Part shown: positions 2,417-61,162 of the stretch, in pieces | Position numbering within the stretch: the stretch's first letter is position 1 | Layout: every line of letters begins with the position of its first letter | From: a virus | Taxonomy: Duplodnaviria > Heunggongvirae > Uroviricota > Caudoviricetes | DNA: 64,000 nt | Direction: 5' to 3' (one strand) | Virus record (IMG/VR): IMGVR_UViG_2855308460_000004 | Translations under genes and position numbers: made by a program | The notes under the pieces: generated by a model | Seen by the model: the letters and a program-made list of their open reading frames with translations, nothing else | What the model was told of the DNA's origin: nothing | Database searches by the model: none

Positions 2417-2421
2417 TCAAA

Positions 2422-2442: not shown

Positions 2443-2459
2443 TAAAATGTTTTTCTTAT

Positions 2460-2533: not shown

Positions 2534-2534
2534 T

Positions 2535-2606
2535 TACGGTGTAGTTCAACGGATAGAACATAGGTTTCCTAGACCTACAATATGGGTTCGATTCCCATCA
2601 TCGTAA
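2535..2606 (+). tRNA. tRNA-Arg (CCT)
   Basis: Anticodon arm taggt-ttCCTag-accta. Confidence 0.75.
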
Positions 2607-2608
2607 CT

Positions 2609-2682
2609 GTGGCCGTGGCTCAATTGGTACAGCAGCGGATTGTGGCTCCGCCATTTTGCGGGTTCAACTCCCGTCGGTCACC
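2609..2682 (+). tRNA. tRNA-His (GTG)
   Basis: Anticodon arm gcgga-ttGTGgc-tccgc, acceptor gtggccg/cggtcac. Confidence 0.7.
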
Positions 2683-6440: not shown

Positions 6441-6524
6441 AATATTTTTACATACTAGTAACAACAACTGAAGTCAGGATATAATATTGTGATTTTAGTT
6501 AATAAAGGAAAGGGAGAACATGAA

Positions 6525-16488: not shown

Positions 16489-16570
16489 GCTCGCATGGCG
16501 GAACAGGAAGACGCATGGGACTTAAAATCCCAGGAAGAAATTCGTGAGGGTTCGATTCCCTCTGTGAGTA
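16489..16570 (+). tRNA. tRNA-Leu (TAA), class II
   Basis: Anticodon arm tggga-ctTAAaa-tccca, long variable arm, T-arm gaggg-ttcgatt-ccctc. Confidence 0.7.
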
Positions 16571-16575
16571 CTGAT

Positions 16576-16647
16576 AGATCGATGGTGTAAATGGCAACAT
16601 GATGGTCTCCAAAACCATTGCTCAGGGTTCGAGTCCCTGTCGGTCTG
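16576..16647 (+). tRNA. tRNA-Trp (CCA)
   Basis: Anticodon arm atggt-ctCCAaa-accat. Confidence 0.8.
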
Positions 16648-16651
16648 TTAT

Positions 16652-16736
16652 ACGGCTATTGCCAAGCGGTAAGGCGGGAGGCTTTGACCCTCTTAAATAT
16701 CAATAGATTTCGCTGGTTCGAATCCAGCTAGCCGTG
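16652..16736 (+). tRNA. Class II-shaped tRNA (Ser-like D-arm, 18-nt variable region) with ambiguous anticodon (loop ctttgac: TTG or shifted TGA)
   Basis: Perfect acceptor acggcta/tagccgt; D-arm gcc-aagcggtaa-ggc; T-arm gctgg-ttcgaat-ccagc. Confidence 0.45.
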
Positions 16737-16763
16737 TTATATAACTACCAAAGTTATAATCCT

Positions 16764-16836
16764 GGCCGCATAGTCGAGTGGTTATGACGGGAGCCTTTCA
16801 AGCTTCAGGTGTCGGGTTCAATTCCCACTGCGGTCA
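16764..16836 (+). tRNA. tRNA-Glu (TTC); T-stem has mismatches
   Basis: Anticodon arm ggagc-ctTTCaa-gcttc; acceptor ggccgca/tgcggtc. Confidence 0.5.
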
Positions 16837-16862
16837 TTATATCAAAATAAGGAGATAAAAAA

Positions 16863-16898
16863 ATGAAACGAAAAACAGAACGTACGAAAACAGAATGA
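16863..16898 (+). CDS. 11-codon mini-ORF (MKRKTERTKTE) with a strong RBS inside the tRNA array
   Basis: aaggagat, 8-nt spacer, then ATG; ends 9 nt before tRNA-Lys. Confidence 0.25.
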   Translation: MKRKTERTKTE

Positions 16899-16906
16899 AA
16901 TTATAC

Positions 16907-16980
16907 GCGCCTGTAGCTCAGTTGGCTAAAGCAACCGGCTTTTAACCGGTAGACCGTGGGTTCGAGTCCCACTAGGCGCA
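16907..16980 (+). tRNA. tRNA-Lys (TTT)
   Basis: Anticodon arm accgg-ctTTTaa-ccggt. Confidence 0.8.
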
Positions 16981-16984
16981 TTTA

Positions 16985-17066
16985 GCACGTATCGCCTAGT
17001 GGTAGGGCACTCGACTTTTAATCGAGAGGCACATGGCCATCCTGGGTTCGAATCCCAGTACGTGCA
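16985..17066 (+). tRNA. tRNA-Lys(TTT)-like with an anomalous 15-nt variable region (82 nt)
   Basis: Perfect acceptor gcacgta/tacgtgc; anticodon arm ctcga-ctTTTaa-tcgag; T-arm ctggg-ttcgaat-cccag. Confidence 0.45.
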
Positions 17067-17071
17067 TTCAT

Positions 17072-17143
17072 GCATCGTAGCCCATGCGGAGTGGGAACAG
17101 TCTGCAAAACTGTCTTTGGTCGGTTCGACTCCGACACGATGCT
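17072..17143 (+). tRNA. tRNA-Cys (GCA)
   Basis: Perfect acceptor; anticodon arm acagt-ctGCAaa-actgt. Confidence 0.8.
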
Positions 17144-17412
17144 TGTGCATATTATCGCTGTGGCAAAAAAAGTACTAAAGATATCGGAAACAGCATAAAA
17201 CGACTCTTTGGTAAATAGCACAGACGCATGGAACTAACAATTGTGAAATGCGGAGCAGACAGGATAGGAAAATTGATATGCTGGTCAAAATTACTACTGT
17301 AAAAAAACATGGTATATGAAACTATATCTGCGTAAAGTGGTGAGGTTCTTTTGGATGCCCGATGAAATAAAAATAATGCTTTCGGCCAACTCCACGTAAT
17401 ATGCCCAATTAA

Positions 17413-17832
17413 TTGGAGGTTGTAATGTATCATTTGATAAAGAAACATCAATACCTTGTAATTAGTATCTTATTTATGGTTGTCTTGAGAGGAATAGAGT
17501 TTGCGTTAGTAAATACAGGACATGAATTTGAAATGGTACTCCTTGATCCTATAGCATTCGCACTGCTGTATGTTTTGCTGGCAATAAAATGTAATATTAC
17601 GGATATAAGCAAGATAACATTTACTTTAATATGTCTCATTATGATGTATATAGTAAGCGAATCAATTTTTTTAGTTCCACATTCTTGGATTACTTATAAG
17701 GATAAGGGTTTTTTTGGAGGCCTTTACACATTAATGTATTCATTAACAATCCTGTATGATTGGATATATGTAATCGTGTGTTATTTAATAACAATTATAG
17801 TTAAATTAGTCATTAATAGACTGCGTCTGTAG
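17413..17832 (+). CDS. Small polytopic membrane protein (139 aa) between the two halves of array 2; its stop lies inside the next tRNA
   Basis: RBS ggaggt; four hydrophobic segments; TAG stop at 17830–17832, inside tRNA-Lys (17823–17895). Confidence 0.5.
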   Translation: MEVVMYHLIKKHQYLVISILFMVVLRGIEFALVNTGHEFEMVLLDPIAFALLYVLLAIKCNITDISKITFTLICLIMMYIVSESIFLVPHSWITYKDKGFFGGLYTLMYSLTILYDWIYVIVCYLITIIVKLVINRLRL

Positions 17833-17895
17833 CTCAGCTGGAAGAGCAGGTGGCTCTTAACCATCAGGTCCAGGGTTCGATGCCCTGCAGGCGCA
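17823..17895 (+). tRNA. tRNA-Lys (CTT)
   Basis: Anticodon arm ggtgg-ctCTTaa-ccatc. Confidence 0.8.
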
Positions 17896-17936
17896 TTTCT
17901 ATCCAATAGGAAAGATTCATGTGAATTATAAATTTA

Positions 17937-18010
17937 GGCGCTATAGTGGAATTGGTTATCACGCCAGACTCTCAATCTGGAGACTGCGAGTTCAAGCCTC
18001 GCTAGCGTCA
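17937..18010 (+). tRNA. tRNA-Glu (CTC)
   Basis: Anticodon arm ccaga-ctCTCaa-tctgg. Confidence 0.8.
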
Positions 18011-18013
18011 TAT

Positions 18014-18093
18014 GTCCATATGGTGGAACGGAATACACGCTCGGCTAAGAACCGGGTCCCAAGAGGATGTGGGTTCAAATCCCACTATGGACA
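18014..18093 (+). tRNA. Class II tRNA with anticodon loop ctAAGaa (Leu AAG; A34 is unusual)
   Basis: Perfect acceptor gtccata/tatggac; 12-nt variable arm; T-arm gtggg-ttcaaat-cccac. Confidence 0.5.
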
Positions 18094-18097
18094 TTAT

Positions 18098-18170
18098 AGC
18101 CCAATAGTTCAACTGGAAGAACATCAGTTTCTGAATCTGAATGTTGCAGGTTCGAATCCTGCTTGGGTTG
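18098..18170 (+). tRNA. tRNA-Gln (CTG)
   Basis: Anticodon loop ttCTGaa. Confidence 0.7.
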
Positions 18171-18193
18171 TCAAACAGAGTTTTTGATAATTT

Positions 18194-18275
18194 GCCCATA
18201 TGGCGTAATGGCAGACGCTGTGGACTTAAAATCCACTGGATTCATTCCGTGCCGGTTCGAGTCCGGCTATGGGTA
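18194..18275 (+). tRNA. tRNA-Leu (TAA), second copy
   Basis: Perfect acceptor gcccata/tatgggt; anticodon arm gtgga-ctTAAaa-tccac. Confidence 0.8.
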
Positions 18276-18283
18276 TTTATTTT

Positions 18284-18355
18284 GGCATCTTCGACAAGTT
18301 GGTAAGTCGCAGGTATTTCAAACCTGAGTCACTGGTTCGAATCCAGTAGATGTCA
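18284..18355 (+). tRNA. tRNA-Glu (TTC)-like (loop atTTCaa, A32)
   Basis: Acceptor ggcatct/agatgtc; T-arm actgg-ttcgaat-ccagt. Confidence 0.5.
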
Positions 18356-18358
18356 TCA

Positions 18359-18429
18359 GCTTTCATAGTTTAAAGGTAGAACAGCTGCCTCGTAAGCAGT
18401 CAATGACAGTTCGATTCTGTCTGGAAGCT
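18359..18429 (+). tRNA. tRNA-Thr (CGT)
   Basis: Anticodon arm gctgc-ctCGTaa-gcagt; T-arm gacag-ttcgatt-ctgtc. Confidence 0.7.
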
Positions 18430-18430
18430 T

Positions 18431-18591
18431 TCCTATAGTCGCTGTGGTACGGACACAGACGCCATCGCAGGTCATAGTGGCGGAGCAAGGACGAGTCGAA
18501 ACGATGACGGTATTAGACAGTCTAAATAGAGCAAAGGCAGATTGCTTGCGTAAAGAGGTGAGTCTTAGCGGACAATTCCTCGCTATAGGAA
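18431..18591 (+). ncRNA. ~160-nt structured element between tRNAs, closed by a 9-bp stem (tcctatagt…gctatagga); unclassified
   Basis: Long-range inverted repeat plus internal hairpins (gcaaaggcagattgcttgc, cgaaacg loop); no ORF. Confidence 0.3.
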
Positions 18592-18676
18592 TACTATATA
18601 TTTTTGACCGTTTGTGGAGCTGACTTTTTGGTATGTGAGGTTAGTGGTGACAATGAGGAGGAGGGCATTGTCATTA

Positions 18677-18757
18677 GCTCGTATGATGGAAAGGAAGACA
18701 TGGCTGACTCAAAATCAGCTGCCGATAGGCGTAAGGGTTCAAATCCCTTTATGAGCA
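18677..18757 (+). tRNA. tRNA-Leu (CAA)
   Basis: Anticodon arm gctga-ctCAAaa-tcagc; class II. Confidence 0.75.
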
Positions 18758-18763
18758 TGCAAT

Positions 18764-18843
18764 GTTCATGTGGCGGAATGGAATACGCGTGCGGCTCAGA
18801 ACCGCATGGTTATACCTTGTGGGTTCGAATCCCACCATGAACA
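18764..18843 (+). tRNA. tRNA-Leu (CAG)
   Basis: Perfect acceptor; anticodon arm tgcgg-ctCAGaa-ccgca. Confidence 0.8.
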
Positions 18844-18846
18844 TCT

Positions 18847-18918
18847 GCCTTTATAGGCTAATGGACAAACTGCCTGACTTCGAATCAGGTGTTATGAGTT
18901 CGAATCTCATTAAAGGCA
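18847..18918 (+). tRNA. tRNA-Arg (TCG)
   Basis: Anticodon arm cctga-ctTCGaa-tcagg. Confidence 0.75.
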
Positions 18919-18922
18919 CTAA

Positions 18923-18994
18923 GTTCCTGTAGGCTAATGGATAAACCATCCGGCTACGAACCGGCAATTGGGAGTTCGAATCTCTTCAGGAACA
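18923..18994 (+). tRNA. tRNA-Arg (ACG)
   Basis: Perfect acceptor gttcctg/caggaac; anticodon loop ctACGaa. Confidence 0.75.
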
Positions 18995-18998
18995 TGAA

Positions 18999-19077
18999 GC
19001 CCGCATGGTGGAATGGAAGACATGCCTGACTTAGGATCAGGTGCGAAAGCGTGAGGGTTCAAATCCCTCTGTGGGTA
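18999..19077 (+). tRNA. tRNA-Leu (TAG)
   Basis: Anticodon arm cctga-ctTAGga-tcagg; variable arm tgcgaaagcgt. Confidence 0.8.
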
Positions 19078-21207: not shown

Positions 21208-21867
21208 ATGGATATTTATTTAATTCGTCATGGTGAATCAATCATGAACACAGGAGAAAATACAAAAATTGGAGCAATTGATAATAAAGTCTGGCTCACT
21301 GAAAAAGGGAAAGAGCAAGCAAAAAGATCAGCAGAATTTTTAAAAGAATACTTAGAATATGATTGCAATGGTACGGCTAAAACTGGAATATGGGTTAGTC
21401 CATATAGTAGAACGCGTGAAACTTTTAATATATTCAAGTCAATTATCGACTTCCAGGATATGGGTGCTGTATGTAAAGAAGATATTCTTTTAGCAGAACA
21501 GGAATTTGGATTATTTGACTCTGTACCAGAAGAAAATTGGAGTGATGAGTTTCCAAAAGAATATACGTATTACAAGAAACTGAAAGAAAACCAAGGCAAA
21601 TTTTACGCAAGGTGCCCTATGGGTGAAAGTCCAAAAGATGTTGCAATTAGGTGCCGTATATTTTTTGATACAATCTGGAGAGATTATGATAAGCATCATA
21701 TTGACAAGCTCTTTATATTTACACATGGGACAGTGCTTCGTTCTTTTGTAATGGCTTGGCAGCACTATACACCAGAATGGTATGAAGCAGAAAAAAATCC
21801 AGGCAATTGCTGGATTAGAAGGATTAGTAACAACAAGGACATGGGTTATATATACAAAGGAGAATAA
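21208..21867 (+). CDS. Histidine phosphatase superfamily protein (PGAM-like)
   Basis: N-terminal LIRHGES catalytic motif. Confidence 0.65.
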   Translation: MDIYLIRHGESIMNTGENTKIGAIDNKVWLTEKGKEQAKRSAEFLKEYLEYDCNGTAKTGIWVSPYSRTRETFNIFKSIIDFQDMGAVCKEDILLAEQEFGLFDSVPEENWSDEFPKEYTYYKKLKENQGKFYARCPMGESPKDVAIRCRIFFDTIWRDYDKHHIDKLFIFTHGTVLRSFVMAWQHYTPEWYEAEKNPGNCWIRRISNNKDMGYIYKGE

Positions 21868-21868
21868 T

Positions 21869-22681
21869 ATGTTTTTTTTACTTCAAAAGGAAGAGAAATA
21901 TAACAATCTGGATTTAGAAACATTTATCGTCAAAGATATCCTTGAGCACAATAAATTTATGGATGAATATATTTTCTATTCAAAAGATGATTTTGTTTTA
22001 GATGGACTTTGTGAATATCCAAGATATATAAAACAAGCGATTCCTGTGGGAACAATAGATTTTGTTGAAGCCTGGCTGTATCGATTCCACAAAATCGACT
22101 GTATTAACCCAATTGAGATTCCACCTTGCTTAAGAAAGGAAGAATTCCTAAAGAGAGAATATAGAATTGTAAGGAAAGAGAATCTTCCAACTGCAGGGCA
22201 AATTTTTTTTAAGGATGCATCAAGATTGAAAGTTTTTTCGGGAGAAATTAATTGCGAGACATTTTTTACAGATGATTTGTGGAAACCGAAACAGAATGAT
22301 GTTGATACAACACTTCACTTGGATCCAGAGCATTTATTTCAGGTATCAGAGATTGTGAATATAAGAAGTGAATATAGAATATATATACAGGATAATATCA
22401 TCCAGGCCATCGCAAATTATAATGGAGCTCCTTGTTTGTTGCCAGATGTTGAGTTACTGCAAAAGATGATAAATATCTATTCCATGCAGTACGATTGCCC
22501 AAAAGCTTATACAATGGATGTCGCAGTTAATGAAAAGGGAACATTCCTTTTAGAAATACATCCATGGATAGCAGTAGGATTATATAATAGTCTGTGGAGC
22601 AGAAATTTGTTATATGCATATAGAGATGGCATACAATATGTTTTGGATTTTAATACAGAGATAGAAGAGTGGAACAATTAG
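21869..22681 (+). CDS. ATP-grasp-like hypothetical protein (270 aa)
   Basis: YRIYIQDNII and MDVAVNEKGTFLLEIHPW resemble ATP-grasp C-terminal motifs; start placed at the ATG after RBS aaaggagaa. Confidence 0.35.
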   Translation: MFFLLQKEEKYNNLDLETFIVKDILEHNKFMDEYIFYSKDDFVLDGLCEYPRYIKQAIPVGTIDFVEAWLYRFHKIDCINPIEIPPCLRKEEFLKREYRIVRKENLPTAGQIFFKDASRLKVFSGEINCETFFTDDLWKPKQNDVDTTLHLDPEHLFQVSEIVNIRSEYRIYIQDNIIQAIANYNGAPCLLPDVELLQKMINIYSMQYDCPKAYTMDVAVNEKGTFLLEIHPWIAVGLYNSLWSRNLLYAYRDGIQYVLDFNTEIEEWNN

Positions 22682-22709
22682 GCGAAATATTTAATAGAGG
22701 AGAAAAACT

Positions 22710-23915
22710 GTGTTCGAGTTAAAAGGAAAATATAATAAGTGCAAAATCTTTACGGACGATGTAGATGAGGATTGTATAAGGCAATTAATTTCGCTGCTGA
22801 ATCAAGAGAGTTTACAAGACTCAATAATAAGGATTATGCCGGATGCGCATGCTGGAGCGGGATGTGTGATAGGTACAACAATGACCATTACAGATAAAGT
22901 TATTCCCAATTTAGTTGGCGTTGATATAGGTTGTGGTATGCGTACAGTGAGACTCAAAGAAAAACGGATTGAATTACCAAAATTAGATAGCATAATTCGT
23001 AAGAACATTCCTTCAGGTGGAAGTATACATGACAAATTCAATCAACTTCAATATGCAAGACGATTTGATATTGAACGCCTTCGCTGCATAGGAAAAAATA
23101 ATTGCAAAGTAAGTGAAGACATTGCTGCTTGCAGTATTGGAACACTTGGCGGCGGAAATCATTTCATTGAAGTCGACAAAGATGAAGATGGTAACTTATA
23201 TCTGGTTGTTCATACTGGAAGCCGTAGGCTTGGTAAAGATGTTGCTGAATACTATCAAAATAGGGCCTATGAGGAACTAAATTGTGTTGCCACCTATTAC
23301 AAAGAAATTAAAAAGAAGGATAGGCGGGAAAAGTGGGAAAGACCTGATCCAAGTAAATTGCCATCTGTTCCATATGAATTAGCATACTGTGAAAATGAAT
23401 TGTTGGCTGATTATATCCATGATATGGAGGTTGTGCAGGAATATGCATTTTGGAATCGGAAAGCTATTGCGAATACGATTTTAAAGGAAATGAAACTTCA
23501 TTCAGTAGAAGAATTTGAGACAGTCCACAACTATATTGATACTGAATATATGATTCTTAGAAAAGGTGCCGTCTCAGCAAGGAAAGTTGAAAAAATTTTA
23601 ATCCCGATAAATATGCGTGATGGTTCTTTACTTTGTATGGGAAAAGGAAATGAGGATTGGAATTATTCCGCACCACATGGAGCTGGCCGCTTGATGTCAA
23701 GAAGTCAGGCAAAAGAAAATATTACATTATCAGCATTCAAGAAAACAATGAAGGAGGCAGGTGTTTATAGTACATCGGTGACACGAGATACCATTGATGA
23801 GTCACCATTTGTATACAAACCCATGGAGGAGATTGTAGAAAACATAAAGGATACAGTAGAAATCATAAATGTAATTAGACCAATCTATAATTTTAAAGCT
23901 AGTGTGAAAGAATAG
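22710..23915 (+). CDS. rtcB: RtcB-family RNA ligase (GTG start)
   Basis: MPDAHAGAGCVIG and GGGNHFIEV metal-binding motifs. Confidence 0.8.
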   Translation: MFELKGKYNKCKIFTDDVDEDCIRQLISLLNQESLQDSIIRIMPDAHAGAGCVIGTTMTITDKVIPNLVGVDIGCGMRTVRLKEKRIELPKLDSIIRKNIPSGGSIHDKFNQLQYARRFDIERLRCIGKNNCKVSEDIAACSIGTLGGGNHFIEVDKDEDGNLYLVVHTGSRRLGKDVAEYYQNRAYEELNCVATYYKEIKKKDRREKWERPDPSKLPSVPYELAYCENELLADYIHDMEVVQEYAFWNRKAIANTILKEMKLHSVEEFETVHNYIDTEYMILRKGAVSARKVEKILIPINMRDGSLLCMGKGNEDWNYSAPHGAGRLMSRSQAKENITLSAFKKTMKEAGVYSTSVTRDTIDESPFVYKPMEEIVENIKDTVEIINVIRPIYNFKASVKE

Positions 23916-25478: not shown

Positions 25479-25529
25479 ACTCTCTTATTAAGTTATGATA
25501 TAATGGATAAAAGAAAATGGGAGGATAAT

Positions 25530-26279
25530 ATGCTTCTAAAAATAACAACAAAATGCAATATGAACTGCAGCCATTGCTTTAATTCTTGCTCAGCCAATGG
25601 TATTAATATGAGTTGGCCTGATATTACATCATCAATTGATTTTATTAACAGGGTGAGAGCTAAATGCTTAATATTGACAGGCGGTGAACCTACTGAACAC
25701 CCGGATTTTATAGATGTGACAAAATACATATGTAAAAATACAAAGGCTGTTATTAAAATTATTATTGCCTCAAACGGAATTTATTTTGAGAAAAATCCAT
25801 TAGTTGTGAAAGAATTATTGGCATATGATTCTCGAATTAGTATTCAAGTAACAAATGTTCCTGAATATTATCCTATTAGTATAGATGAAAATAATGAAAT
25901 ATACAAATTAGATAGAGCTTTATTATGCAGGAAAATTGAAAGCATGTATCCTCAAGGAAACGCTTTAAAGAATAATTATAAGTGGAGTGCAAAGTGTTCC
26001 AAATGTTTTAATTTTATTTCGATTATGAATCAACTTAAGAAGAAGAGCATTGAAGAAACCATATATACATTAGAATCTAATTTTAAATTCTGTACACCTC
26101 AGATTGATGCAGATGGAACTCTGAAGCCAGGAGAGAGCAGCTTGTGTAAGGGCGTTGGAACAATACATGATGACGAGGCTATATTGGTCCATAATATTTT
26201 AAATTTCAGATGTGAACAGTGTGATTTTATCAATAAAAACTTGCCTAAATCATATCAGCAACTAATAAATATAAAATAA
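25530..26279 (+). CDS. Radical SAM domain protein
   Basis: CNMNCSHC (Cx3Cx2C) and LTGGEPTEHPDF. Confidence 0.65.
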   Translation: MLLKITTKCNMNCSHCFNSCSANGINMSWPDITSSIDFINRVRAKCLILTGGEPTEHPDFIDVTKYICKNTKAVIKIIIASNGIYFEKNPLVVKELLAYDSRISIQVTNVPEYYPISIDENNEIYKLDRALLCRKIESMYPQGNALKNNYKWSAKCSKCFNFISIMNQLKKKSIEETIYTLESNFKFCTPQIDADGTLKPGESSLCKGVGTIHDDEAILVHNILNFRCEQCDFINKNLPKSYQQLINIK

Positions 26280-31237: not shown

Positions 31238-32779
31238 ATGTTAGATTTAATTTTACCGATGTTGCCAATTGTTTTAGTTGTAATCATTCTACTTGGTATT
31301 TTAGCCAGTGGTTATGTAAAAGCGCCACCGGACAGGGCATATATTATTTCTGGCCTTAAGAAGGAACCTAAAATTTTAACTGGTCGTGCTGGTATTAAAA
31401 TTCCGTTTCTTGAGAGACTTGATAAATTGTATCTAGGTCAGATGACGGTTGATATTAAAACAGAGCAGTCCGTTCCAACCAACGACTTTATTAATGTTAA
31501 TGTTGACGCTGTTGCAAAAGTAAGGATTGAACCCTCTGAAGAAGGAATCAAGCTAGCTGCAAAGAACTTCCTTAATAAGAATCAAGATCAGATTACCCTT
31601 GATCTACAGGATTCATTACAAGGAAATATGCGTGAGATTATCGGCACTCTGACATTAAAGGCTATTAACACAGATCGTGATTCATTCTCAGATCAGGTAA
31701 TGGAAAAAGCCTCAAAGGATATGAAGAAACTTGGTATCGAAATCGTATCATGCAATATCCAGAACGTGACAGACGAAAATGGGCTGATTAAGGATCTTGG
31801 TGCTGACAATACTGCCAGAATCAAAAAGGATGCATCTATTGCAAAAGCACAGGCTGAAAGAGATATTGCAATTGCCCAGGCTGAAGCTGATAAGACAGCA
31901 AATGATGCACGAGTAATTTCTGAAACTGAGATTGCACAGAGAAACAATGAACTGTCAATTAAGAAATCCGAGCTGCAGAAAGTTTCCGACACGAAGAAAG
32001 CAGAAGCAGATGCAGCATATGAGATTCAGAGACAGGAGCAGGAAAAAACAATTCAGACCGCAACTGTCAATGCGCAGATTGCAAAAGCTGAAAAGGAAGC
32101 TGAGCTGAAAACAAAAGAAGTTGCTGTTATGCAACAGAAATTAGAAGCTGAAATTAATAAAAAAGCGGATGCAGAACGTTATCGTGTTGAACAAATTGCA
32201 GCTGCGGACCTTGCCCGTAGACAACGAGAAGCAGAAGCTAAGAAATATGAGCAAGAGAAAGAGGCAGAGGCTAAAAAGGCAATTGCAGAAGCACAAAAAT
32301 ATGCAATGTTACAGGAAGCTGAAGGTGTGAAAGCAAAAGGTGAGGCTGAAGCTACTGCAATTCAGGCAAAAGGCCTTGCAGAAGCAGAAGCTATGGAAAA
32401 GAAAGCAGAGGCAATGAAGAAGTATGGCCAGGCTGCTATGATGGAAATGATTGTACAGGCATTACCAGAAATGGCAAAAGCAATTGCGGAACCATTGTCT
32501 ACTATTGATAAGGTAACAATCATTGACAGTGGTAATGGTGAAGCGGGTGTATCTTCCATGGGTTCCTATGTCCCTGGTGTGTTAGCCAAGACGATTGAAT
32601 CTGTAAAGGAGACAACCGGATTGGATATAACGGAAATTATGAAAGCCAATACGTATGATGCTAAGGTAACCAGGAACGTAAATATTTCTGGTCTTCCTGA
32701 GAATGTTGAATCTGATGAAGTTTCAAATGCAATGGTAGCGAAAGAAGTAGTTGAAGCTACTAACAGTAAGGAAGACTAA
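31238..32779 (+). CDS. floT: Flotillin-like SPFH/band-7 protein (FloT/YuaG family)
   Basis: N-terminal TM; SPFH domain; long Ala/Glu/Lys-rich coiled coil; C-terminal MEMIVQALPEMAKAIAEPLSTIDKVTIID. Confidence 0.8.
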   Translation: MLDLILPMLPIVLVVIILLGILASGYVKAPPDRAYIISGLKKEPKILTGRAGIKIPFLERLDKLYLGQMTVDIKTEQSVPTNDFINVNVDAVAKVRIEPSEEGIKLAAKNFLNKNQDQITLDLQDSLQGNMREIIGTLTLKAINTDRDSFSDQVMEKASKDMKKLGIEIVSCNIQNVTDENGLIKDLGADNTARIKKDASIAKAQAERDIAIAQAEADKTANDARVISETEIAQRNNELSIKKSELQKVSDTKKAEADAAYEIQRQEQEKTIQTATVNAQIAKAEKEAELKTKEVAVMQQKLEAEINKKADAERYRVEQIAAADLARRQREAEAKKYEQEKEAEAKKAIAEAQKYAMLQEAEGVKAKGEAEATAIQAKGLAEAEAMEKKAEAMKKYGQAAMMEMIVQALPEMAKAIAEPLSTIDKVTIIDSGNGEAGVSSMGSYVPGVLAKTIESVKETTGLDITEIMKANTYDAKVTRNVNISGLPENVESDEVSNAMVAKEVVEATNSKED

Positions 32780-32827: not shown

Positions 32828-32949
32828 ACAAAAAACAGTCAATAATTTAGCAGTTGTGCTGATATCAACTTTAGGTGATACCTGCAAATATGATACATTC
32901 ATACATACTTAATATAAAAGTTTATATGACTAAAATAAAGGAGATTAAA

Positions 32950-33204
32950 ATGAAGGGAAGATTAAAAGAAGCAAGAAAAGAAGCAAGAGAATACATGAAC
33001 GAACGTGGACGGTATCATTCATGCATAAGTTTTACAAGACAAAAAGGATACTACTTTACGCCACATGGTGATGGATTTACCGTTTTTTATTGTAATAAAA
33101 ATGGCAGCCTAACAGAATCTAAAACAGATTATGCAAGAAGATTTCATCAATGTAAAAAGCAAAGGGAAAAAAGGCGAAACCTAAATGGTAAGAAAAAACA
33201 CTGA
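32950..33204 (+). CDS. Small basic protein (84 aa from the RBS-supported ATG)
   Basis: K/R-rich; RBS aaaggagat. Confidence 0.4.
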   Translation: MKGRLKEARKEAREYMNERGRYHSCISFTRQKGYYFTPHGDGFTVFYCNKNGSLTESKTDYARRFHQCKKQREKRRNLNGKKKH

Positions 33205-33279
33205 AATGCTTTTGGAATCTTATTTATATTATTGTCTTATATCACACATAATATTCAAAAATAAAAAAGGAGAATATAA

Positions 33280-34386
33280 ATGAGAAAAATTATGAACCGA
33301 TTTGGGACAGGAATACTATATGATGAAACAGATTTAGGAAAAGGTATATACTGCGTATGTACTGCATGTATGAGTGTCTGGTCTGATTTCTTAAGTTTTG
33401 CTAATTTAGAATTAGAAAAAGGAGGCTTTAAAGGTTTCGTCAAACATAAAAATCAGAGTAAAGAAGTATCACCATACTACATAGAAAATGACTGTTACCT
33501 TAATGATACGGATACAATCGTAGTGTTAGGATGTCAAGTGACTGATCTTGCAATTTATAATGATTTAAAAACAGCAGAAAAATTGCATGAAAGATACCCA
33601 GATATTCCTATTTATATGGGAGGATGTTTGGCTCAAAGATTTGATATTGAGCTGCCTGAATATCTAAAGCGACTTGATGTTATTAGAGAAGAATATCAAA
33701 ACCTGCAGTTTGTAAATGGATTTATTGATTATAAAAAACCGTTTTGGAATAAGGAACTGAAAGATGACGAAAAGGATGAACTTGCTGCAGGCAACTTATT
33801 TCGGCATATGTATCCATTAAAGATTGGAGCAGGATGTCATGGAAAATGCAAATACTGTACCATAAGAGACACAAGAGGTGAAACTTATGAAACAGATGCT
33901 TATCTGCAGATAAATGAATTTTTGATGCATGACAACATTGTCTTAATCAGTGATAGTCCAACTGTAAAACAAATACATGATTGGTGTCACCTTGCGGATA
34001 GATATGATAGGACAATATCTCTTAGGAATGTAGAACCTCAGATTGCAAATGCATGCCGAAATGATTTAATGTATATTGCTAAAAAGGGCCTTCTTAAAAT
34101 CTTACATTGTCCAATCCAGAGTAATAACACAAATGTGTTGTCTGCAATGAATCGAGATATCAAAGGAACACTTGAGTATATAGACTTTGCTCAAGAACTA
34201 AGATCAATGGGAGTGATTGTTGCCACAAACATTATTATAGATTACACCGTGGACGGAGATGTAATACATAATATGGATGAAGATTGGCTTGATTCACATT
34301 TCGATTACTGGTCATGGAATCCATACTTTGATGGTAACTGGGATTATGAGAAAGCAAAAGAACGGTTTGAAAAGTATATTGGGTGA
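33280..34386 (+). CDS. Radical SAM methylthiotransferase-like protein (MiaB/RimO family, no TRAM domain)
   Basis: N-terminal MTTase-like Cys (YCVCTAC, LGCQVT, GGCLAQR) plus radical SAM CHGKCKYC. Confidence 0.5.
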   Translation: MRKIMNRFGTGILYDETDLGKGIYCVCTACMSVWSDFLSFANLELEKGGFKGFVKHKNQSKEVSPYYIENDCYLNDTDTIVVLGCQVTDLAIYNDLKTAEKLHERYPDIPIYMGGCLAQRFDIELPEYLKRLDVIREEYQNLQFVNGFIDYKKPFWNKELKDDEKDELAAGNLFRHMYPLKIGAGCHGKCKYCTIRDTRGETYETDAYLQINEFLMHDNIVLISDSPTVKQIHDWCHLADRYDRTISLRNVEPQIANACRNDLMYIAKKGLLKILHCPIQSNNTNVLSAMNRDIKGTLEYIDFAQELRSMGVIVATNIIIDYTVDGDVIHNMDEDWLDSHFDYWSWNPYFDGNWDYEKAKERFEKYIG

Positions 34387-34470
34387 GTGACTATTACATT
34401 TATAAAGAGCTGACCAATAATCAGTTCTTTTTTTATGAAATATCATACTAAAAATAAAAAGGAGTATTTT

Positions 34471-35694
34471 ATGTTCTTAGATATATTTAAAATAAAAAAA
34501 TATTCCAACAAGCAATTTGATAGTTGGCAATTAGATGAAATCCAAAAAGGTAAGGAAGCTGGAGTTGATACTTCAATTTATGCTTATCCGCAAATTAAGC
34601 CATATGAAATGGAAGCTGCTAGAAAGGCTTTGATAATGGGAGTATCTCCAGATTGTTTAAGTTATCTTATTAAAGAATATACTGATAGGAATATAGAAAC
34701 ATATAATTTAGAAGACTTAATAAAAAACTCAATTTATGTTCTTGATATTGATTTTTTAACCACAAAATATTTACCCAAAGAGGCTCCTTCTGAAACGCAT
34801 AAGCTTTTTAAATCTGAAATTCTATATGGTGCGGTATTTGGAGATATTGCTGGAAGTTTCTATGATTTTACACTAAAATCAGATGAGCGTAAGGGTCTTA
34901 ATATAAATAATTGTATAGTTAATGGAAGTAGCTTTACTGATGACACAATTCTTACTTGTGCTACAGCTATTACCATAGGTAATAACACAATAAAAAAAGA
35001 ACAAAGAAGACCCGCTATAAGCGACTTCAATAAAAACTCTTGCTATCCATTTCTAAATAACCCTTTTAAAAGTGAATATCGAGAAAAAACACTTAAATTT
35101 CCTGGAAGTGGATATGGTGCTAATTTCTATGAATGGGCTATTTACAATAGTGATTATCCATATGGCAGTTTTGGAAATGGATCAGCAATGAGAGTTTCTC
35201 CTATTGGCGTTAAGTTTGAAAAAGTAAAAGATGTGATTCTATATGCAATAGCAAGTGCCTCTGTAACACACAATCATCCAGAAGGGATAAAAGGCGCTGC
35301 AGTCACGGCTGTTATTATTTGGATGGCAAGGAATGGGTATAGCAAAGAACAAATCTTTGCATATATGAAAAACTATTATATCAATACATATGGATTTGTT
35401 CACTTTAGTTTAGATGAATTAAAATACCCAATGCATCAATTAAAATCTGATTCAACTTGTATGTTTGCTGTACCTGCAGCTGTTATATGTTTTTATAATG
35501 CAAATTCATATGAAGAAACCATTGATAATATTTTATCATTTAATGGAAATTCTGATACTATAGGCACTATTGCAGGATCAATTGCAGCAGCCTATTATGG
35601 AGTTCCCAAAATGGTAATAGAGAAAGTAAATGAATATAAACCAGAGGGAATATTTGATGAAGCACTATCTGCTTTGAAAAAAGAAGAACCTTAA
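34471..35694 (+). CDS. ADP-ribosylglycohydrolase family protein
   Basis: GAVFGDIAGSFYDF, GSSFTDDTILT, GNGSAMRVSPIG, GNSDTIGTIAGSIAAAYYG. Confidence 0.65.
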   Translation: MFLDIFKIKKYSNKQFDSWQLDEIQKGKEAGVDTSIYAYPQIKPYEMEAARKALIMGVSPDCLSYLIKEYTDRNIETYNLEDLIKNSIYVLDIDFLTTKYLPKEAPSETHKLFKSEILYGAVFGDIAGSFYDFTLKSDERKGLNINNCIVNGSSFTDDTILTCATAITIGNNTIKKEQRRPAISDFNKNSCYPFLNNPFKSEYREKTLKFPGSGYGANFYEWAIYNSDYPYGSFGNGSAMRVSPIGVKFEKVKDVILYAIASASVTHNHPEGIKGAAVTAVIIWMARNGYSKEQIFAYMKNYYINTYGFVHFSLDELKYPMHQLKSDSTCMFAVPAAVICFYNANSYEETIDNILSFNGNSDTIGTIAGSIAAAYYGVPKMVIEKVNEYKPEGIFDEALSALKKEEP

Positions 35695-36263: not shown

Positions 36264-36338
36264 TTAAGCGGTATAGATTATGTTAGAAAGTGATTGGAAT
36301 GGGTGTCCATATAGACGGAATCTAATTATAAGGAGATA

Positions 36339-36629
36339 ATGATGGAAGAATCCAAATTAATGACTTATGAAGAAATGAAGCAAATTTTACTCACGGAAAT
36401 ACCATTTGATACATTAGAAAAGAATAGTGGAATCTATGAATTTCATGAAGTTGGATTTCTTAGTATTGGCATTTCCTACGAAGATGTATACGACCCTAAT
36501 GAAATTTATTACTATAATCTGTTTTGGGCTGATCAATATATTGATATTGGTGCAATAGGAACAAAGTCAGAGCCAGTTAATGATAACGTGATTTGGAAAC
36601 TAGTAAATAAATGGAACGAGTTGTTTTAA
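36339..36629 (+). CDS. Hypothetical protein (96 aa)
   Basis: ORF with RBS aaggagat. Confidence 0.4.
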   Translation: MMEESKLMTYEEMKQILLTEIPFDTLEKNSGIYEFHEVGFLSIGISYEDVYDPNEIYYYNLFWADQYIDIGAIGTKSEPVNDNVIWKLVNKWNELF

Positions 36630-44993: not shown

Positions 44994-46007
44994 ATGAAAG
45001 AGAGGACTTTTAAAATGATAAAAATTGATGGAAATAAGGTTAAAATTGGAGACAACATTTACCTGCCTGAAGCCTGGCATGAAAATATATTGGCCAAAAC
45101 AGAAAAAAAAGATATTCCATATCAGTACACCATTAAGGAAGAAAAGAAGCTAGACCAAAAAGTTTTTATATGTGAAGGGATAAAAAACAAAAAATCATAT
45201 AATATCGCATTAACCGAAAATGTCATCAAATATTTACTTGGTTCAGAAGTACCGGACTCAAACATTGGGTTTTCTTTTAAAGAATATCTTCCGGTTGAAG
45301 GGACCGATATCTTGATTACCAGTAATAAAAATCCTAGTGATGTTGTCCCGGCAAAAATAAATTTATACTGTGAATATGTTGAAATTGAGGATAAGAAATA
45401 TGTATTATTTGATTTCCGTGCGGACTACTTGAATGGAAAAGGCTTTACATCGATTAATTATTATACTGGTTACTCAAGAGGTATTTGGAAATTCCTATTC
45501 CATACAGATATTTCTTACATGACAGATTATGAAAAGATGTTCCAGGATACCTACGTCCATAAAGAATACATTAAAAAGGCGTGCAGAAAGCTTGCTGATT
45601 ATATGTTTTCAAAAGGAATGGATATACATGCCAAGAAACTGTTAGAGAGAGCCGAAACACATGACAATTCTAAGGTAATGTGTGAAGATGAGTTGTATGC
45701 TCTTTCCACCATTATTAATGACAAATCATGTTTAAAGGATGCGAATAAAGCACTATCGCAGTTAAAACAGGATGCCATAAAGCTTCATTGGAAGCACAAC
45801 AGTCATCATCCAGAGCATTTTAAAAATTATGCAGATATGGAAAGACTTGATGTTATGGAAATGGTATGCGACTGGTATGCAAGAGCTCTACAGTATGGGA
45901 CTGACTTAATGGAATTTGCAAAAATAAGACAAGAAGATAGGTTCCATTTTCCACAATACATGTTTGATGAGATTATGTTTTACTGTGAGATATTAGTGAG
46001 GGATTAA
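44994..46007 (+). CDS. Hypothetical protein (337 aa)
   Basis: ORF. Confidence 0.5.
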   Translation: MKERTFKMIKIDGNKVKIGDNIYLPEAWHENILAKTEKKDIPYQYTIKEEKKLDQKVFICEGIKNKKSYNIALTENVIKYLLGSEVPDSNIGFSFKEYLPVEGTDILITSNKNPSDVVPAKINLYCEYVEIEDKKYVLFDFRADYLNGKGFTSINYYTGYSRGIWKFLFHTDISYMTDYEKMFQDTYVHKEYIKKACRKLADYMFSKGMDIHAKKLLERAETHDNSKVMCEDELYALSTIINDKSCLKDANKALSQLKQDAIKLHWKHNSHHPEHFKNYADMERLDVMEMVCDWYARALQYGTDLMEFAKIRQEDRFHFPQYMFDEIMFYCEILVRD

Positions 46008-60596: not shown

Positions 60597-61162
60597 TGAG
60601 ACATTTGTTTAAAGATTTTTTAGAATTTATAAAAACAGTCATACCAGCTATTATATTAGCATGGGTCATAACACATTTTTTGATTGCGAATGCAATCGTA
60701 CCAACAGGGTCAATGGAGTCAACCATCGTAACAGGAAGCCGGTTAATAGGAAATCGTTTGGCATATAAGTTTGGAACATTGCCAGAACGTGGAGATATTA
60801 TTATATTTAAATATCCTGATGACGAATCCATTTACTATGTAAAACGTATTATAGGAACACCTGGAGACACAATAGAAATCATCCCAGATGTAGATATAAC
60901 GTCAGAAACATCAAATCTTAAAACAGCAACCGGTCATGTATACGTAAATGGACATCCAATCTATGAAGATTATTTAAATGAACCGATGATGGTGAATGAA
61001 TATATGAAATTTGAAGTCCCTGAAGACGCTTATTTTTGTATGGGAGATAATCGGAACAATTCTCATGATTCGAGATATTGGGATAACCACTTTGTATATG
61101 AAGAAAAAATCATAGCAAAAGTAATGTTCCAATATTGGAAGGGTATAAAAATTTTTCATTGA
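60596..61162 (+). CDS. lepB: Signal peptidase I (S26 family)
   Basis: GSMESTI (catalytic Ser), YVKRIIGTPGD (catalytic Lys), GDNRNNSHDSRYW. Confidence 0.85.
   Translation: MRHLFKDFLEFIKTVIPAIILAWVITHFLIANAIVPTGSMESTIVTGSRLIGNRLAYKFGTLPERGDIIIFKYPDDESIYYVKRIIGTPGDTIEIIPDVDITSETSNLKTATGHVYVNGHPIYEDYLNEPMMVNEYMKFEVPEDAYFCMGDNRNNSHDSRYWDNHFVYEEKIIAKVMFQYWKGIKIFH

What the first reader, a model, noticed from the sequence alone, without database searches (positions are those of the whole stretch)
33280..35694. MiaB-like radical SAM enzyme adjacent to an ADP-ribosylglycohydrolase
The first gene is a TRAM-less methylthiotransferase-like enzyme, a possible tRNA or protein modifier. The second has the diagnostic ADP-ribosylglycohydrolase motifs. 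An element-borne ADP-ribosylglycohydrolase could reverse host ADP-ribosylation defences (DarT-type DNA ADP-ribosylation or protein mono-ADP-ribosylation). The pairing is unusual.
Basis: partly seen in the sequence, partly recalled or inferred. Interest (0 to 1): 0.55.

Follow-up and report, generated by a model that had tools for sequence, protein, structure and literature searches.

The report
NAD-linked radical SAM enzyme beside ADP-ribosylhydrolase
Both genes are real, but the MiaB-like enzyme belongs to a small uncharacterised family that sits in NAD+ salvage operons in bacteria and archaea and beside NAD+-rebuilding genes in large phages. Its pairing with an ADP-ribose hydrolase is therefore part of a wider NAD+/ADP-ribose gene neighbourhood, and it hints at a radical SAM step in NAD+ metabolism that has not been described.

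Summary
Window 33280-34386 encodes a TRAM-less, two-cluster methylthiotransferase-like radical SAM protein. Window 34435 (more likely 34471) to 35694 encodes an ARH3-like ADP-ribosylhydrolase. The host element is tRNA-rich and resembles a jumbo phage, in an Enterocloster aldenensis assembly.

The radical SAM protein belongs to a small, sharply bounded family. In 40 of 75 dereplicated loci it lies inside operon-like NAD+ salvage clusters (NrtR, PncA/B/C, NadD/E/K, Prs, NadR-PnuC, Nudix, sometimes ARH) of reduced-genome Bacilli and DPANN archaea. In six phage loci it lies in or beside NARP1-type NAD+ reconstitution clusters (Adps-like, Namat, Macro or PARG, PncA, NadE). The pairing with ARH is therefore a trimmed form of a recurrent NAD+/ADP-ribose neighbourhood, not an oddity.

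I read the enzyme as acting on an NAD-pathway metabolite. Its chemistry is unresolved. A tRNA role remains a serious rival, because phage copies often sit among tRNA and RNA-ligase genes.

This ARH copy has substitutions at two near-invariant catalytic positions, and the gene is cleanly deleted in a 92-96% identical element. It may be dispensable or decaying. No paper I could search links a radical SAM enzyme to NAD+ salvage.

The parts
33267..33272 (+). Ribosome-binding site (AAGGAG) of the radical SAM gene
   Evidence: Read directly from the sequence. It ends 7 nt before the ATG at 33280.
33280..34386 (+). TRAM-less methylthiotransferase-like radical SAM protein (368 aa). Auxiliary-cluster Cys are C30/C85/C116. 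Radical SAM Cys are C186/C190/C193. There is a conserved HCPIQS motif and a C-terminal FDYWSWNPYFDG motif.
34404..34437 (+). Terminator-like hairpin (10-bp stem, 7-nt loop) followed by a T-run, between the two genes
   Evidence: consensus scan only, function not shown; sequence.
34458..34464 (+). Ribosome-binding site (AAAGGAG) before the internal ATG at 34471, the likely true start of the ARH gene
   Evidence: Several homologues begin at the equivalent residue.
34435..35694 (+). ARH3-like ADP-ribosylhydrolase (419 aa from ATG 34435, 407 aa from ATG 34471). It has an N-terminal helical extension of about 110 aa and a catalytic domain at residues ~126-400. T168-D169-D170, D374 and T375 are kept. 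D144 (ARH3 E41 position) and N372 (ARH3 D314 position) deviate.
   Evidence: It is deleted in L063.
31238..32779 (+). SPFH/flotillin gene. It is a conserved upstream neighbour in the closest relatives (L063, L064). This is context and is not shown to be functionally linked.
   Evidence: A Band_7 gene also lies two genes from the radical SAM gene in L003.
32875..33204 (+). Small conserved ORF (109 aa by ORF list, 84 aa as called in the GenBank assembly) directly upstream of the radical SAM gene. Function unknown.

Best explanation
The locus is a trimmed NAD+/ADP-ribose module carried by a tRNA-rich, jumbo-phage-like element of Enterocloster aldenensis.

Shown:
- Gene 1 has the methylthiotransferase (MTTase) architecture. 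It has an N-terminal domain with a three-Cys auxiliary [4Fe-4S] site and a radical SAM core with CxxxCxxC. It lacks the TRAM domain and carries its own aromatic-rich C-terminus.
- It belongs to a small family that is clearly separate from MiaB, MtaB and RimO.
- In cellular genomes this family is embedded co-directionally, with operon-like spacing, in NAD+ salvage clusters. In six phage loci it lies in or next to NARP1-type NAD+ reconstitution clusters.
- Gene 2 is an ARH3-like ADP-ribosylhydrolase.

Inferred:
- The radical SAM enzyme acts on a small molecule of the NAD+/ADP-ribose network (a pyridine or adenine nucleotide, or a precursor), not on tRNA.
- It uses 5'-deoxyadenosyl-radical C-H activation, probably coupled to sulfur or methylthio transfer from the auxiliary cluster.
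- The ARH releases free ADP-ribose from ADP-ribosyl conjugates or derivatives. This would parallel the Macro (Adpp), PARG and RyR 'feeder' enzymes that accompany phage NAD+ reconstitution genes.
- In the phage both genes would protect or restore the NAD+ pool, or handle NAD-derived products, during infection.

The exact substrate and product of the radical SAM enzyme are unknown.
For: Architecture and family:
- Invariant Cys triads and motifs.
- Alignment to MiaB's auxiliary-cluster Cys.
- RimO and MtaB are the best structural matches.
- The family is discrete: 72 clusters at 50% identity with E<=1e-30 among 1.84 billion representatives, then a sharp score gap to canonical ~420-440 aa MTTases.

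Context in cellular genomes:
- After dereplication at 90%, 40 of 75 loci with at least 6 kb of flank have three or more different NAD genes within 6 kb. Counts are NadE 35, NrtR 30, NadD 26, PncA 24, NadK 24, Prs 21, PncB 21, PncC 18, Nudix 15, NadR 13, PnuC 10 and ARH 7.
- Pfam and NCBIfam confirm these identities.
- Gene order differs between Bacilli, Woesearchaeota/DPANN and phage loci, but the linkage persists.
- Median intergenic gaps are 11 and 16 nt, and nearly all neighbours are on the same strand.

Context in phages:
- L003, L004, L069, L070, L079 and L090 carry PncA, an Adps-like gene, a Namat-like gene, Macro or PARG in some, NadE and the radical SAM gene.
- The L003 NAMPT-like protein matches the solved phage Namat at E 7.6e-118, against about 1e-50 for canonical NAMPT.
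- L003, L069 and L070 hold the closest homologues (65-66%) outside the window's own clade.

The pairing:
- ARH directly follows the radical SAM gene in the window, L064 and L007/L068.
- ARH lies 0.6-4 kb away in L035, L039, L056 and L080, and is also present in L062, L135 and L140.

Literature:
- NARP1 operons recruit accessory enzymes that turn NAD-derived products into ADP-ribose (10.64898/2026.01.28.702374 and 10.64898/2026.05.28.727677).

Charge:
- The family is acidic (median pI 5.5, net charge -8.6, n=118). The nearest canonical MTTases are basic (pI 9.0, +11.6, n=25). This is a weak argument against an RNA substrate.
Against: - No other NAD+ gene is present in the 64-kb window.
- 34 of 75 dereplicated loci, mostly phage-like, have no NAD gene within 6 kb.
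- In those loci the radical SAM gene often lies inside or beside tRNA arrays (L104, L125, L015, L092, L120).
- The most recurrent neighbour domains there are RNA ligases, RtcB and Thg1. The window itself has 37 tRNA genes and RNA-repair genes.
- Reverse test: none of 80 IMG/VR loci anchored on L003-like Namat carries the radical SAM gene, although 76 have NadE and 55 have Macro. It is at most a rare accessory of NARP1.
- Many of the Bacilli loci are related, so shared synteny is partly inherited.
- No riboswitch or other direct regulatory link was found.
- All characterised MTTases act on tRNA or ribosomal protein S12 (PMC10702137).
- This ARH copy deviates at two catalytic positions and is dispensable in a sister element. 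A terminator-like hairpin separates the two genes.
Confidence: 0.5

Rival explanations
1. The radical SAM enzyme is a tRNA (or other RNA) methylthiotransferase that lacks a TRAM domain. It serves the element's own large tRNA set or alters tRNA modification during infection. Its neighbour ARH is functionally unrelated.
For: - It has the MTTase architecture with both clusters.
- All known MTTases modify tRNA A37 or protein S12 (PMC10702137).
- The window has 37 tRNA genes, RtcB and a Pnkp-like repair enzyme.
- Homologues are flanked by tRNA genes on both sides in L104 and L125, and lie next to tRNAs in L015, L092 and L120.
- RNA ligase domains are the most recurrent neighbours in phage-like loci.
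Against: - There is no TRAM domain, and the family is acidic.
- 40 of 75 dereplicated loci lie in NAD operons, across Bacilli and archaea, with operon-like spacing. A tRNA enzyme has no evident reason to be there.
- Six phage loci place the gene in NARP1-like clusters.
- tRNA and RNA-repair regions of large phages are general accessory or counter-defence islands, so co-location there is weak evidence.
Confidence: 0.22
2. The ARH is a stand-alone counter-defence enzyme that strips ADP-ribose from phage or host targets modified by host ADP-ribosyltransferase defences. The radical SAM gene is an unrelated neighbour, so the pairing is incidental.
For: - ARH genes occur in other phages (phrog_6572; Porphyromonas and Bacteroides phages and huge phages).
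- A terminator-like hairpin lies between the genes.
- Orthologous long-form ARHs occur without the radical SAM gene.
- The ARH is 66% identical between the window and L064, against 95% for the radical SAM protein. This fits an arms-race gene, or an allele swap.
Against: - ADP-ribose-processing genes (ARH, Macro, PARG) recur near distant family members.
- This copy has E-to-D and D-to-N changes at the ARH3 E41 and D314 positions.
- The gene is deleted in L063.
- From my own knowledge, DarT-type DNA ADP-ribosylation is reversed by macrodomains, not by ARHs.
Confidence: 0.15
3. The ARH is the eraser for an ADP-ribosyltransferase encoded by the element itself. It forms a writer-eraser pair that regulates or detoxifies the element's own PARP-like enzyme. 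It has no metabolic link to the radical SAM enzyme.
For: - A long-form orthologue in a Lacrimispora amygdalina contig sits in a co-directional Macro-PARP-ARH cassette (L147).
- Another orthologue lies 1.8 kb from a bacterial-type PARG (L144/L145).
Against: - No PARP, Macro or PARG homologue was detected in the 64-kb window. The rest of the 472-kb contig was not examined.
- This reading does not explain the recurrence of ARH, Macro or PARG next to the radical SAM family in NAD clusters.
Confidence: 0.1

Closest known systems
Radical SAM methylthiotransferases MiaB, MtaB and RimO (TIGR00089; PDB 7mjz, 9a6d, 4jc0)
   Same: - An N-terminal UPF0004-type domain with three Cys that align to the auxiliary [4Fe-4S] ligands.
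- A CxxxCxxC radical SAM core.
- A conserved H-x-P-x-Q-S / L-x-x-M-x-R motif.
- These are the best sequence and fold matches.
   Different: - There is no TRAM domain. The C-terminus is a family-specific aromatic motif (FDYWSWNPYFDG).
- Scores are far below the curated cut-offs (65.7 against 251 bits).
- The proteins are acidic rather than basic.
- The genomic context is NAD+ salvage or NARP1 clusters rather than translation genes.
ARH3 (ADPRHL2) ADP-ribosylserine / poly(ADP-ribose) / O-acetyl-ADP-ribose hydrolase (PDB 6g1p, 2foz, 6d36)
   Same: - PF03747 fold.
- Best sequence match (E 1.7e-14) and best Foldseek match (E 1.2e-9).
- The TDD and D-T metal-site motifs are conserved.
   Different: - Extra N-terminal helical domain of about 110 aa.
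- Asp in place of ARH3 Glu41, and Asn in place of Asp314, in this copy only.
- Only about 22% identity over the fold alignment.
Phage NAD+ reconstitution pathway 1 and its extended forms: NARP1 (Adps + Namat) and NARP1-AP with the Macro phosphatase Adpp
   Same: Homologues of the radical SAM protein (51-66% identity) lie in or beside clusters with an Adps-like PRPS, a Namat (E 7.6e-118 to PDB 9W5X), and Macro or PARG. ARH, Macro and PARG are all ADP-ribose-handling enzymes, like the described accessory 'feeders'.
   Different: - The window has no Adps or Namat within 64 kb.
- No NARP paper mentions a radical SAM gene.
- None of 80 Namat-anchored IMG/VR loci has it.
- The family is absent from GenBank phage records.
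NrtR-regulated NAD+ salvage operons of bacteria (PncA/PncB/NadD/NadE, NadR-PnuC, Prs, Nudix)
   Same: Most cellular homologues lie inside such clusters, next to an NrtR-type ADP-ribose-responsive repressor gene, with operon-like spacing.
   Different: - A radical SAM gene is not a described member of these regulons. No paper holds both 'radical SAM' and 'NrtR'.
- The window copy is detached from the operon.

Membership tests
Radical SAM methylthiotransferases (MiaB/MtaB/RimO) | N-terminal MTTase (UPF0004) domain with three Cys that bind an auxiliary [4Fe-4S] cluster | tested here: met
   C30, C85 and C116 are invariant in the family. They align to the MiaB auxiliary-cluster Cys motifs. The Pfam UPF0004 hit alone is below its cut-off (19.2 against 27 bits).
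Radical SAM methylthiotransferases (MiaB/MtaB/RimO) | Radical SAM core with a CxxxCxxC motif | tested here: met
   C186-x3-C190-x2-C193 is invariant. Pfam Radical_SAM gives E 2e-5. RimO and MtaB are the best fold matches.
Radical SAM methylthiotransferases (MiaB/MtaB/RimO) | C-terminal TRAM domain | tested here: not met
   There is no TRAM hit in Pfam. The protein ends about 70-100 residues short of canonical MTTases, with a family-specific motif.
Radical SAM methylthiotransferases (MiaB/MtaB/RimO) | Score above the curated family thresholds (TIGR00089 and the equivalogs) | tested here: not met
   TIGR00089 scores 65.7 bits against a 251 cut-off. MtaB, MiaB and RimO equivalogs score 34-49 bits against cut-offs of about 355.
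Radical SAM methylthiotransferases (MiaB/MtaB/RimO) | Methylthiolation of tRNA A37 or of S12 Asp88 | not testable with these tools
   This needs enzymology or nucleoside LC-MS. Context and charge argue weakly against an RNA substrate.
ADP-ribosylglycohydrolase (PF03747; ARH1/ARH3/DraG) | Profile match above the gathering score, and the ARH fold | tested here: met
   108.1 bits against a 26.2 cut-off. The AF2 model has pLDDT 87.9, and Foldseek ranks ARH3 first.
ADP-ribosylglycohydrolase (PF03747; ARH1/ARH3/DraG) | Complete binuclear-metal/catalytic residue set (ARH3 E41, T76, D77, D78, D314, D316, T317) | tested here: inconclusive
   T168, D169, D170, D374 and T375 are present. The E41 position is Asp144 and the D314 position is Asn372. 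Relatives keep Glu and Asp at 90% or more. The effect on activity is unknown.
ADP-ribosylglycohydrolase (PF03747; ARH1/ARH3/DraG) | Hydrolysis of an ADP-ribosyl linkage | not testable with these tools
   This needs a biochemical assay.
Phage NARP1 / NARP1-AP operon | [quoted passage not shown] | tested here: not met
   No NAD-synthesis homologue is in the 64-kb window. The feature is met in the relatives L003, L004, L069, L070, L079 and L090.
NrtR-type NAD+ salvage operon | Co-directional cluster of NAD salvage genes with an NrtR repressor gene | tested here: not met
   Not met for the window copy. It is met for 40 of 75 dereplicated homologous loci. NrtR operator sites were not searched.
DarG-type antitoxin / anti-DarT function | Macrodomain that removes ADP-ribose from thymidine in DNA | tested here: not met
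   No macrodomain is detectable in the window. ARH is a different fold. Activity on ADP-ribosylated DNA was not tested.

The most novel reading that the evidence does not exclude
The family is the first radical SAM enzyme of NAD+ metabolism, and the first MTTase-type enzyme that acts on a small molecule. It would perform a radical C-H thiolation or methylthiolation, or a related transformation, on a pyridine or adenine nucleotide of the Preiss-Handler/ADP-ribose network. This would either make an otherwise unusable NAD-derived compound salvageable or produce a modified NAD. Reduced-genome anaerobes would use it for NAD homeostasis. Large phages would have captured it as a further accessory of NAD+ reconstitution against NAD+-depleting immunity.
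Probability: 0.3. Interest if true: 0.85.

Novelty: new variant of a known kind. Interest (0 to 1): 0.62.

Why it matters
- NAD+ is one of the few major cofactors with no known radical SAM step in its synthesis or salvage.
- MTTases are known to act only on tRNA and one ribosomal protein.
- A conserved, TRAM-less MTTase-like gene embedded in NAD+ salvage operons of RF39-type Bacilli and DPANN archaea, and attached to NARP1-type clusters in gut jumbo phages, gives a concrete candidate for new NAD+ chemistry. It can be tested directly.
- It could also add a layer to the NAD+-centred arms race between phages and bacteria.
- The ARH part is ordinary by comparison. Phage ARHs are known, and this copy may be impaired.

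Tried and rejected
1. DNA similarity of the locus to GenBank phages and PLSDB plasmids gave only flotillin-level matches.
2. Protein-level searches for the radical SAM family found nothing in GenBank phages, PLSDB or the BFVD viral structure set.
3. An Rfam scan of seven cellular NAD loci, looking for an NAD+ or other riboswitch upstream of the radical SAM gene, found only tRNAs.
4. Literature searches combined radical SAM or methylthiotransferase with NAD salvage, NrtR, PncA/PncB/NadE, NARP or methylthio-NAD. None found a relevant paper. The NARP papers contain no 'radical' or 'MiaB'.
5. Fusion proteins P0051 (with DUF4406) and P0054 (C-terminal extension) were uninformative. P0051 looks like a chimeric or truncated gene call.
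6. A search for PARP, Macro or PARG partners of the ARH in the window found none.
7. A reverse search from Namat found no radical SAM gene in 80 loci. I therefore rejected the idea that it is a regular NARP1 component.
8. The afdb50 fold library was unavailable.
9. I considered a de novo nicotinate or quinolinate synthase role. I did not pursue it, because the family occurs as a single gene in phages and among complete salvage gene sets, with no recognised NadC partner.
10. I considered whether the 'NadE' neighbours might be LarE-like sulfur transferases. The tested example is a strong NAD_synthase match (E 2.4e-49).
Full report
**1. What is in the window**

Two co-directional ORFs occupy exactly the stated coordinates.

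The first is 33280-34386 (368 aa), with a strong AAGGAG ribosome-binding site.
- It matches Radical_SAM and UPF0004 only weakly in Pfam (25.3 and 19.2 bits, both under the gathering scores). It has no TRAM hit.
- NCBIfam places it nearest the MiaB/RimO methylthiotransferase (MTTase) subfamily (E 3.3e-18). At 65.7 bits it is far below the 251-bit cut-off.

The second is 34435-35694 (419 aa).
- It is a clear PF03747 ADP-ribosylglycohydrolase (108 bits, E 8.4e-31; phrog_6572 E 1.9e-40).
- ATG 34435 has no ribosome-binding site and overlaps the T-run of a terminator-like hairpin (34404-34430).
- ATG 34471 has AAAGGAG 6 nt upstream and matches the start of several homologues. The gene probably starts there.

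**2. The element**

- The window has about 33% G+C.
- It carries 37 tRNA genes in two arrays.
- It also carries RtcB, an ATP-grasp, a DNA methylase, a TnpB, SecY, LytR, TelA, an OpuA transporter, a sigma factor, a RecD2-like helicase and signal peptidase.
- It has a ClpP-like 'head maturation' protease and a Pnkp-like kinase/phosphatase-RNA ligase at its 3' end.
- An identical ARH protein is on record from Enterocloster aldenensis GCA_003467385.1, contig QSGP01000005.1 (472 kb).
- Relatives with 91-98% identical radical SAM proteins are on contigs of 72, 233 and 272 kb. One of these is an IMG/VR viral contig. A more distant relative (71% identity) is on a 304-kb contig.

I read it as a jumbo-phage-like element. 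No capsid or terminase gene was seen inside this window.

**3. The radical SAM protein**

- Homologues (450 at E<=1e-3) are 343-395 aa and highly conserved.
- In an alignment that spans phage, Bacilli and other members, C30, C85, C116, C186, C190 and C193 are invariant. So are an HCPIQS...M.R motif and a C-terminal FDYW.WNPY motif.
- A family profile hits MiaB (7mjz, E 5e-9) and RimO in the PDB. The three N-terminal Cys align to the MiaB GCQMN / NTCSIR / GCMAE motifs.
- The AF2 model (pLDDT 84.9) is closest to RimO (E 2.5e-11) and MtaB. B12-radical SAM enzymes, which share the N-terminal Rossmann-like domain, come next.
- An exhaustive profile search of 1.84 billion representatives finds only 72 clusters with E<=1e-30. 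Scores then drop sharply to canonical ~420-440 aa MTTases.

It is therefore a distinct, TRAM-less offshoot of the MTTase superfamily with both cluster sites intact. It fails two membership criteria: the TRAM domain and the curated score thresholds.

**4. Family context, the main result**

I collected 142 loci from viral, genome and metagenome collections. I called ORFs and clustered all neighbours within 6 kb.

The dominant neighbour families were identified with Pfam and NCBIfam. They are:
- NAD synthase NadE
- an NrtR-type ADP-ribose-responsive repressor
- NadD
- NAD kinase
- PRPP synthase
- nicotinamidase PncA
- NAPRTase PncB
- NMN deamidase PncC (CinA)
- a Nudix hydrolase
- NadR-like NMNAT/kinase
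- PnuC
- ARH
- NAMPT-like proteins
- nucleoside deoxyribosyltransferase-like proteins

After dereplication at 90% identity, 40 of the 75 loci with enough flank have three or more different NAD genes within 6 kb. These come from uncultured Bacilli (RF39-like, Erysipelotrichaceae-like and 'Tenericutes' MAGs, including a complete 1.49-Mb chromosome) and from Woesearchaeota/DPANN archaea. Gene order differs between lineages, but the radical SAM gene always sits in the middle of the cluster. It is co-directional with its neighbours. Median gaps are 11 and 16 nt, and NadE is the most frequent upstream neighbour (13 of 39).

**5. Phage loci**

Six phage-like loci place the gene in or beside clusters of PncA, a short PRPS-like protein, a NAMPT-like protein and NadE, with a Macro or PARG gene in some of them. 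These are L003, L004, L069, L070, L079 and L090.
- L003, L069 and L070 hold the nearest homologues (65-66%) outside the window's own clade.
- The L003 NAMPT-like protein matches the crystal structures 9W5X and 9W5W at E 7.6e-118, against about 1e-50 for canonical NAMPT. Those entries are phage Namat (PMC12774641).
- These are therefore NARP1-type NAD+ reconstitution operons. The PRPS-like partner is only an Adps candidate.
- Recent work shows that NARP1 operons recruit accessory enzymes that convert NAD-derived products into ADP-ribose. One is a Macro-domain ADPR-1''-phosphatase (10.64898/2026.01.28.702374). Another is the RyR-domain cADPR glycosidases (10.64898/2026.05.28.727677). L004 also has a RyR-domain gene.
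- None of these papers, nor the NARP1 and NARP3 papers, mentions a radical SAM gene.
- The family is absent from GenBank phage records, PLSDB and BFVD.

**6. Evidence that cuts the other way**

- 34 dereplicated loci, mostly dense in small ORFs and phage-like, have no NAD gene within 6 kb. The window belongs with them apart from its ARH.
- In these loci the gene is often inside or next to tRNA arrays. It is flanked by tRNAs on both sides in L104 and L125, and is adjacent to tRNAs in L015, L092 and L120.
- A Pfam tally of 150 neighbours within 3 kb gives RNA_ligase (4), its OB domain (2), RtcB, T4-type RNA ligase and Thg1 as the recurrent themes.
- Anchoring on L003-like Namat returned 80 IMG/VR loci. 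Of these, 76 have NadE, 55 have Macro and none has the radical SAM gene. It is a rare accessory, not a core NARP1 component.
- All characterised MTTases modify tRNA or S12 (PMC10702137).

Against a tRNA role:
- The TRAM domain is missing.
- The cellular operon context is consistent.
- The family is acidic (median pI 5.5, net charge -8.6, n=118), while the nearest canonical MTTases from the same search are basic (pI 9.0, +11.6, n=25). This is a weak discriminator.

tRNA and RNA-repair regions of large phages are also where accessory and counter-defence genes gather. I therefore give the tRNA reading about 0.2 and the NAD-linked reading about 0.5.

**7. The ARH**

- Its nearest solved relative is ARH3, by sequence (E 1.7e-14) and by fold (Foldseek E 1.2e-9; model pLDDT 87.9). 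It has an extra, confidently folded N-terminal helical domain.
- Alignment with 14-17 relatives shows that T168-D169-D170, D374 and T375 are conserved.
- The window copy has Asp144 where at least 90% of relatives have Glu (ARH3 Glu41). It has Asn372 where at least 90% have Asp (ARH3 Asp314).
- PDB entries for the ARH3 E41A, D314A/E and D77A mutants show that these positions have been studied functionally.
- In L063, which is 92-96% identical in the flanks, window 34438-35553 is replaced by about 65 bp. That is a clean loss of the gene.
- Between the window and L064 the radical SAM protein is 95% identical and the ARH only 66%.

The ARH is thus fast-evolving or swapped, dispensable, and possibly impaired in this copy.

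Long-form orthologues elsewhere are not next to the radical SAM gene. One sits in a Macro-PARP-ARH cassette (L147, Lacrimispora amygdalina) and another near a bacterial-type PARG (L144/L145). No PARP, Macro or PARG gene is in the window. ARH genes occur in other phages.

**8. The pairing**

- ARH directly follows the radical SAM gene in the window, L064 and L007/L068.
- ARH lies 0.6-4 kb from family members that are only 52-55% identical, in the Bacilli NAD operons L035, L039, L056 and L080.
- ARH is also present in L062, L135 and L140.
- Macro or PARG occupies a comparable place in L069, L079, L090, L092 and L106.

The pairing is therefore not unusual for this family. It is the minimal form of a recurrent association between the radical SAM gene and ADP-ribose/NAD+ genes.

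**9. Mechanism**

Shown: the domain architecture, the cluster ligands, the family boundary and the genomic associations.

Inferred:
- The radical SAM enzyme uses the 5'-deoxyadenosyl radical to activate a C-H bond in an NAD-pathway small molecule. Given the intact MTTase-type auxiliary site, it probably transfers sulfur or a methylthio group.
- The ARH releases ADP-ribose from conjugates or derivatives.
- In the phage both genes help maintain or recover the NAD+ pool, or dispose of NAD-derived products.

I could not identify the substrate. The frequent adjacency to NadE, PncA and PncB suggests the deamidated (Preiss-Handler) branch or NaAD/NAD itself. This is speculation.

**10. Verdict**

- The ARH is an ordinary phage-borne family member with a possibly compromised active site.
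- The radical SAM gene is the interesting part. It is an uncharacterised, TRAM-less MTTase-like family tied to NAD+ salvage across Bacteria, Archaea and phages. I found no description of it in the searchable literature.
- Novelty: a new variant of a known kind.
- Interest: 0.62.

Noticed in passing
window 539-2682 and 16489-19077: There are two arrays holding 37 tRNA genes in total, covering most amino acids. This is a hallmark of huge phages.
   Followed up: partly
window 10792-12114, 60596-61162, 7814-9121, 6489-7706: The element encodes a SecY homologue, a signal peptidase I, a LytR-CpsA-Psr protein and TelA. This is an unusual set of secretion and envelope genes for a phage-like element.
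   Followed up: no
window 21782-23915 and 63125-64000: RNA-repair genes are present: an R2K-clade ATP-grasp next to RtcB, and a Pnkp-like kinase/phosphatase-RNA ligase that runs off the window end.
   Followed up: partly
window 25503-26279: A second, uncharacterised radical SAM protein (258 aa) gives generic MoaA/SPASM-like hits. It weakly resembles the 'rSAM2' gene found next to the MiaB-like gene in nine Bacilli NAD operons.
   Followed up: partly
window 3126-4370: An IS605-type OrfB/TnpB (Cas12f-like TNB domain) gene lies just after the first tRNA array.
   Followed up: no
window 34438-35553 vs L063 11159-11223; window 36281-36555: In a 92-96% identical 272-kb contig the ARH gene is cleanly deleted. 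A 275-bp segment carrying most of ORF 36339-36629 is present only in the window, and is absent from both L063 and L064.
   Followed up: yes
L147 4238-7272 (Lacrimispora amygdalina OAOF01000022.1): A co-directional Macro-PARP-ARH cassette forms an apparent ADP-ribosylation writer/eraser module. It lies next to a gene for a surface protein of more than 3,000 aa. L144/L145 have a bacterial-type PARG 1.8 kb from the orthologous ARH.
   Followed up: partly
L019 8633-9970: Inside a Bacilli NAD operon, a 143-aa ORF with a Cys/Gly/Ser-rich C-terminus (SSGCGGG...SGCGSG...SGC) precedes a MoaA/viperin-like radical SAM gene. It looks like a peptide-maturase pair.
   Followed up: no
L148-L227 (IMG/VR loci anchored on Namat): In this abundant gut phage group, Namat is accompanied by NadE in 76 of 80 loci and by a Macro gene in 55 of 80. 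NadE thus appears to be a common NARP1 accessory.
   Followed up: partly
window 44994-46007; two phage-like radical SAM loci: A DUF5662 gene lies 10 kb downstream of the radical SAM gene in the window. DUF5662 also occurs within 3 kb of the radical SAM gene in two other phage-like loci.
   Followed up: no
window 31238-32779; L003 9202-10110: An SPFH/flotillin (Band_7) gene lies near the radical SAM gene both in the window clade and in the 65%-identical L003 phage locus.
   Followed up: no
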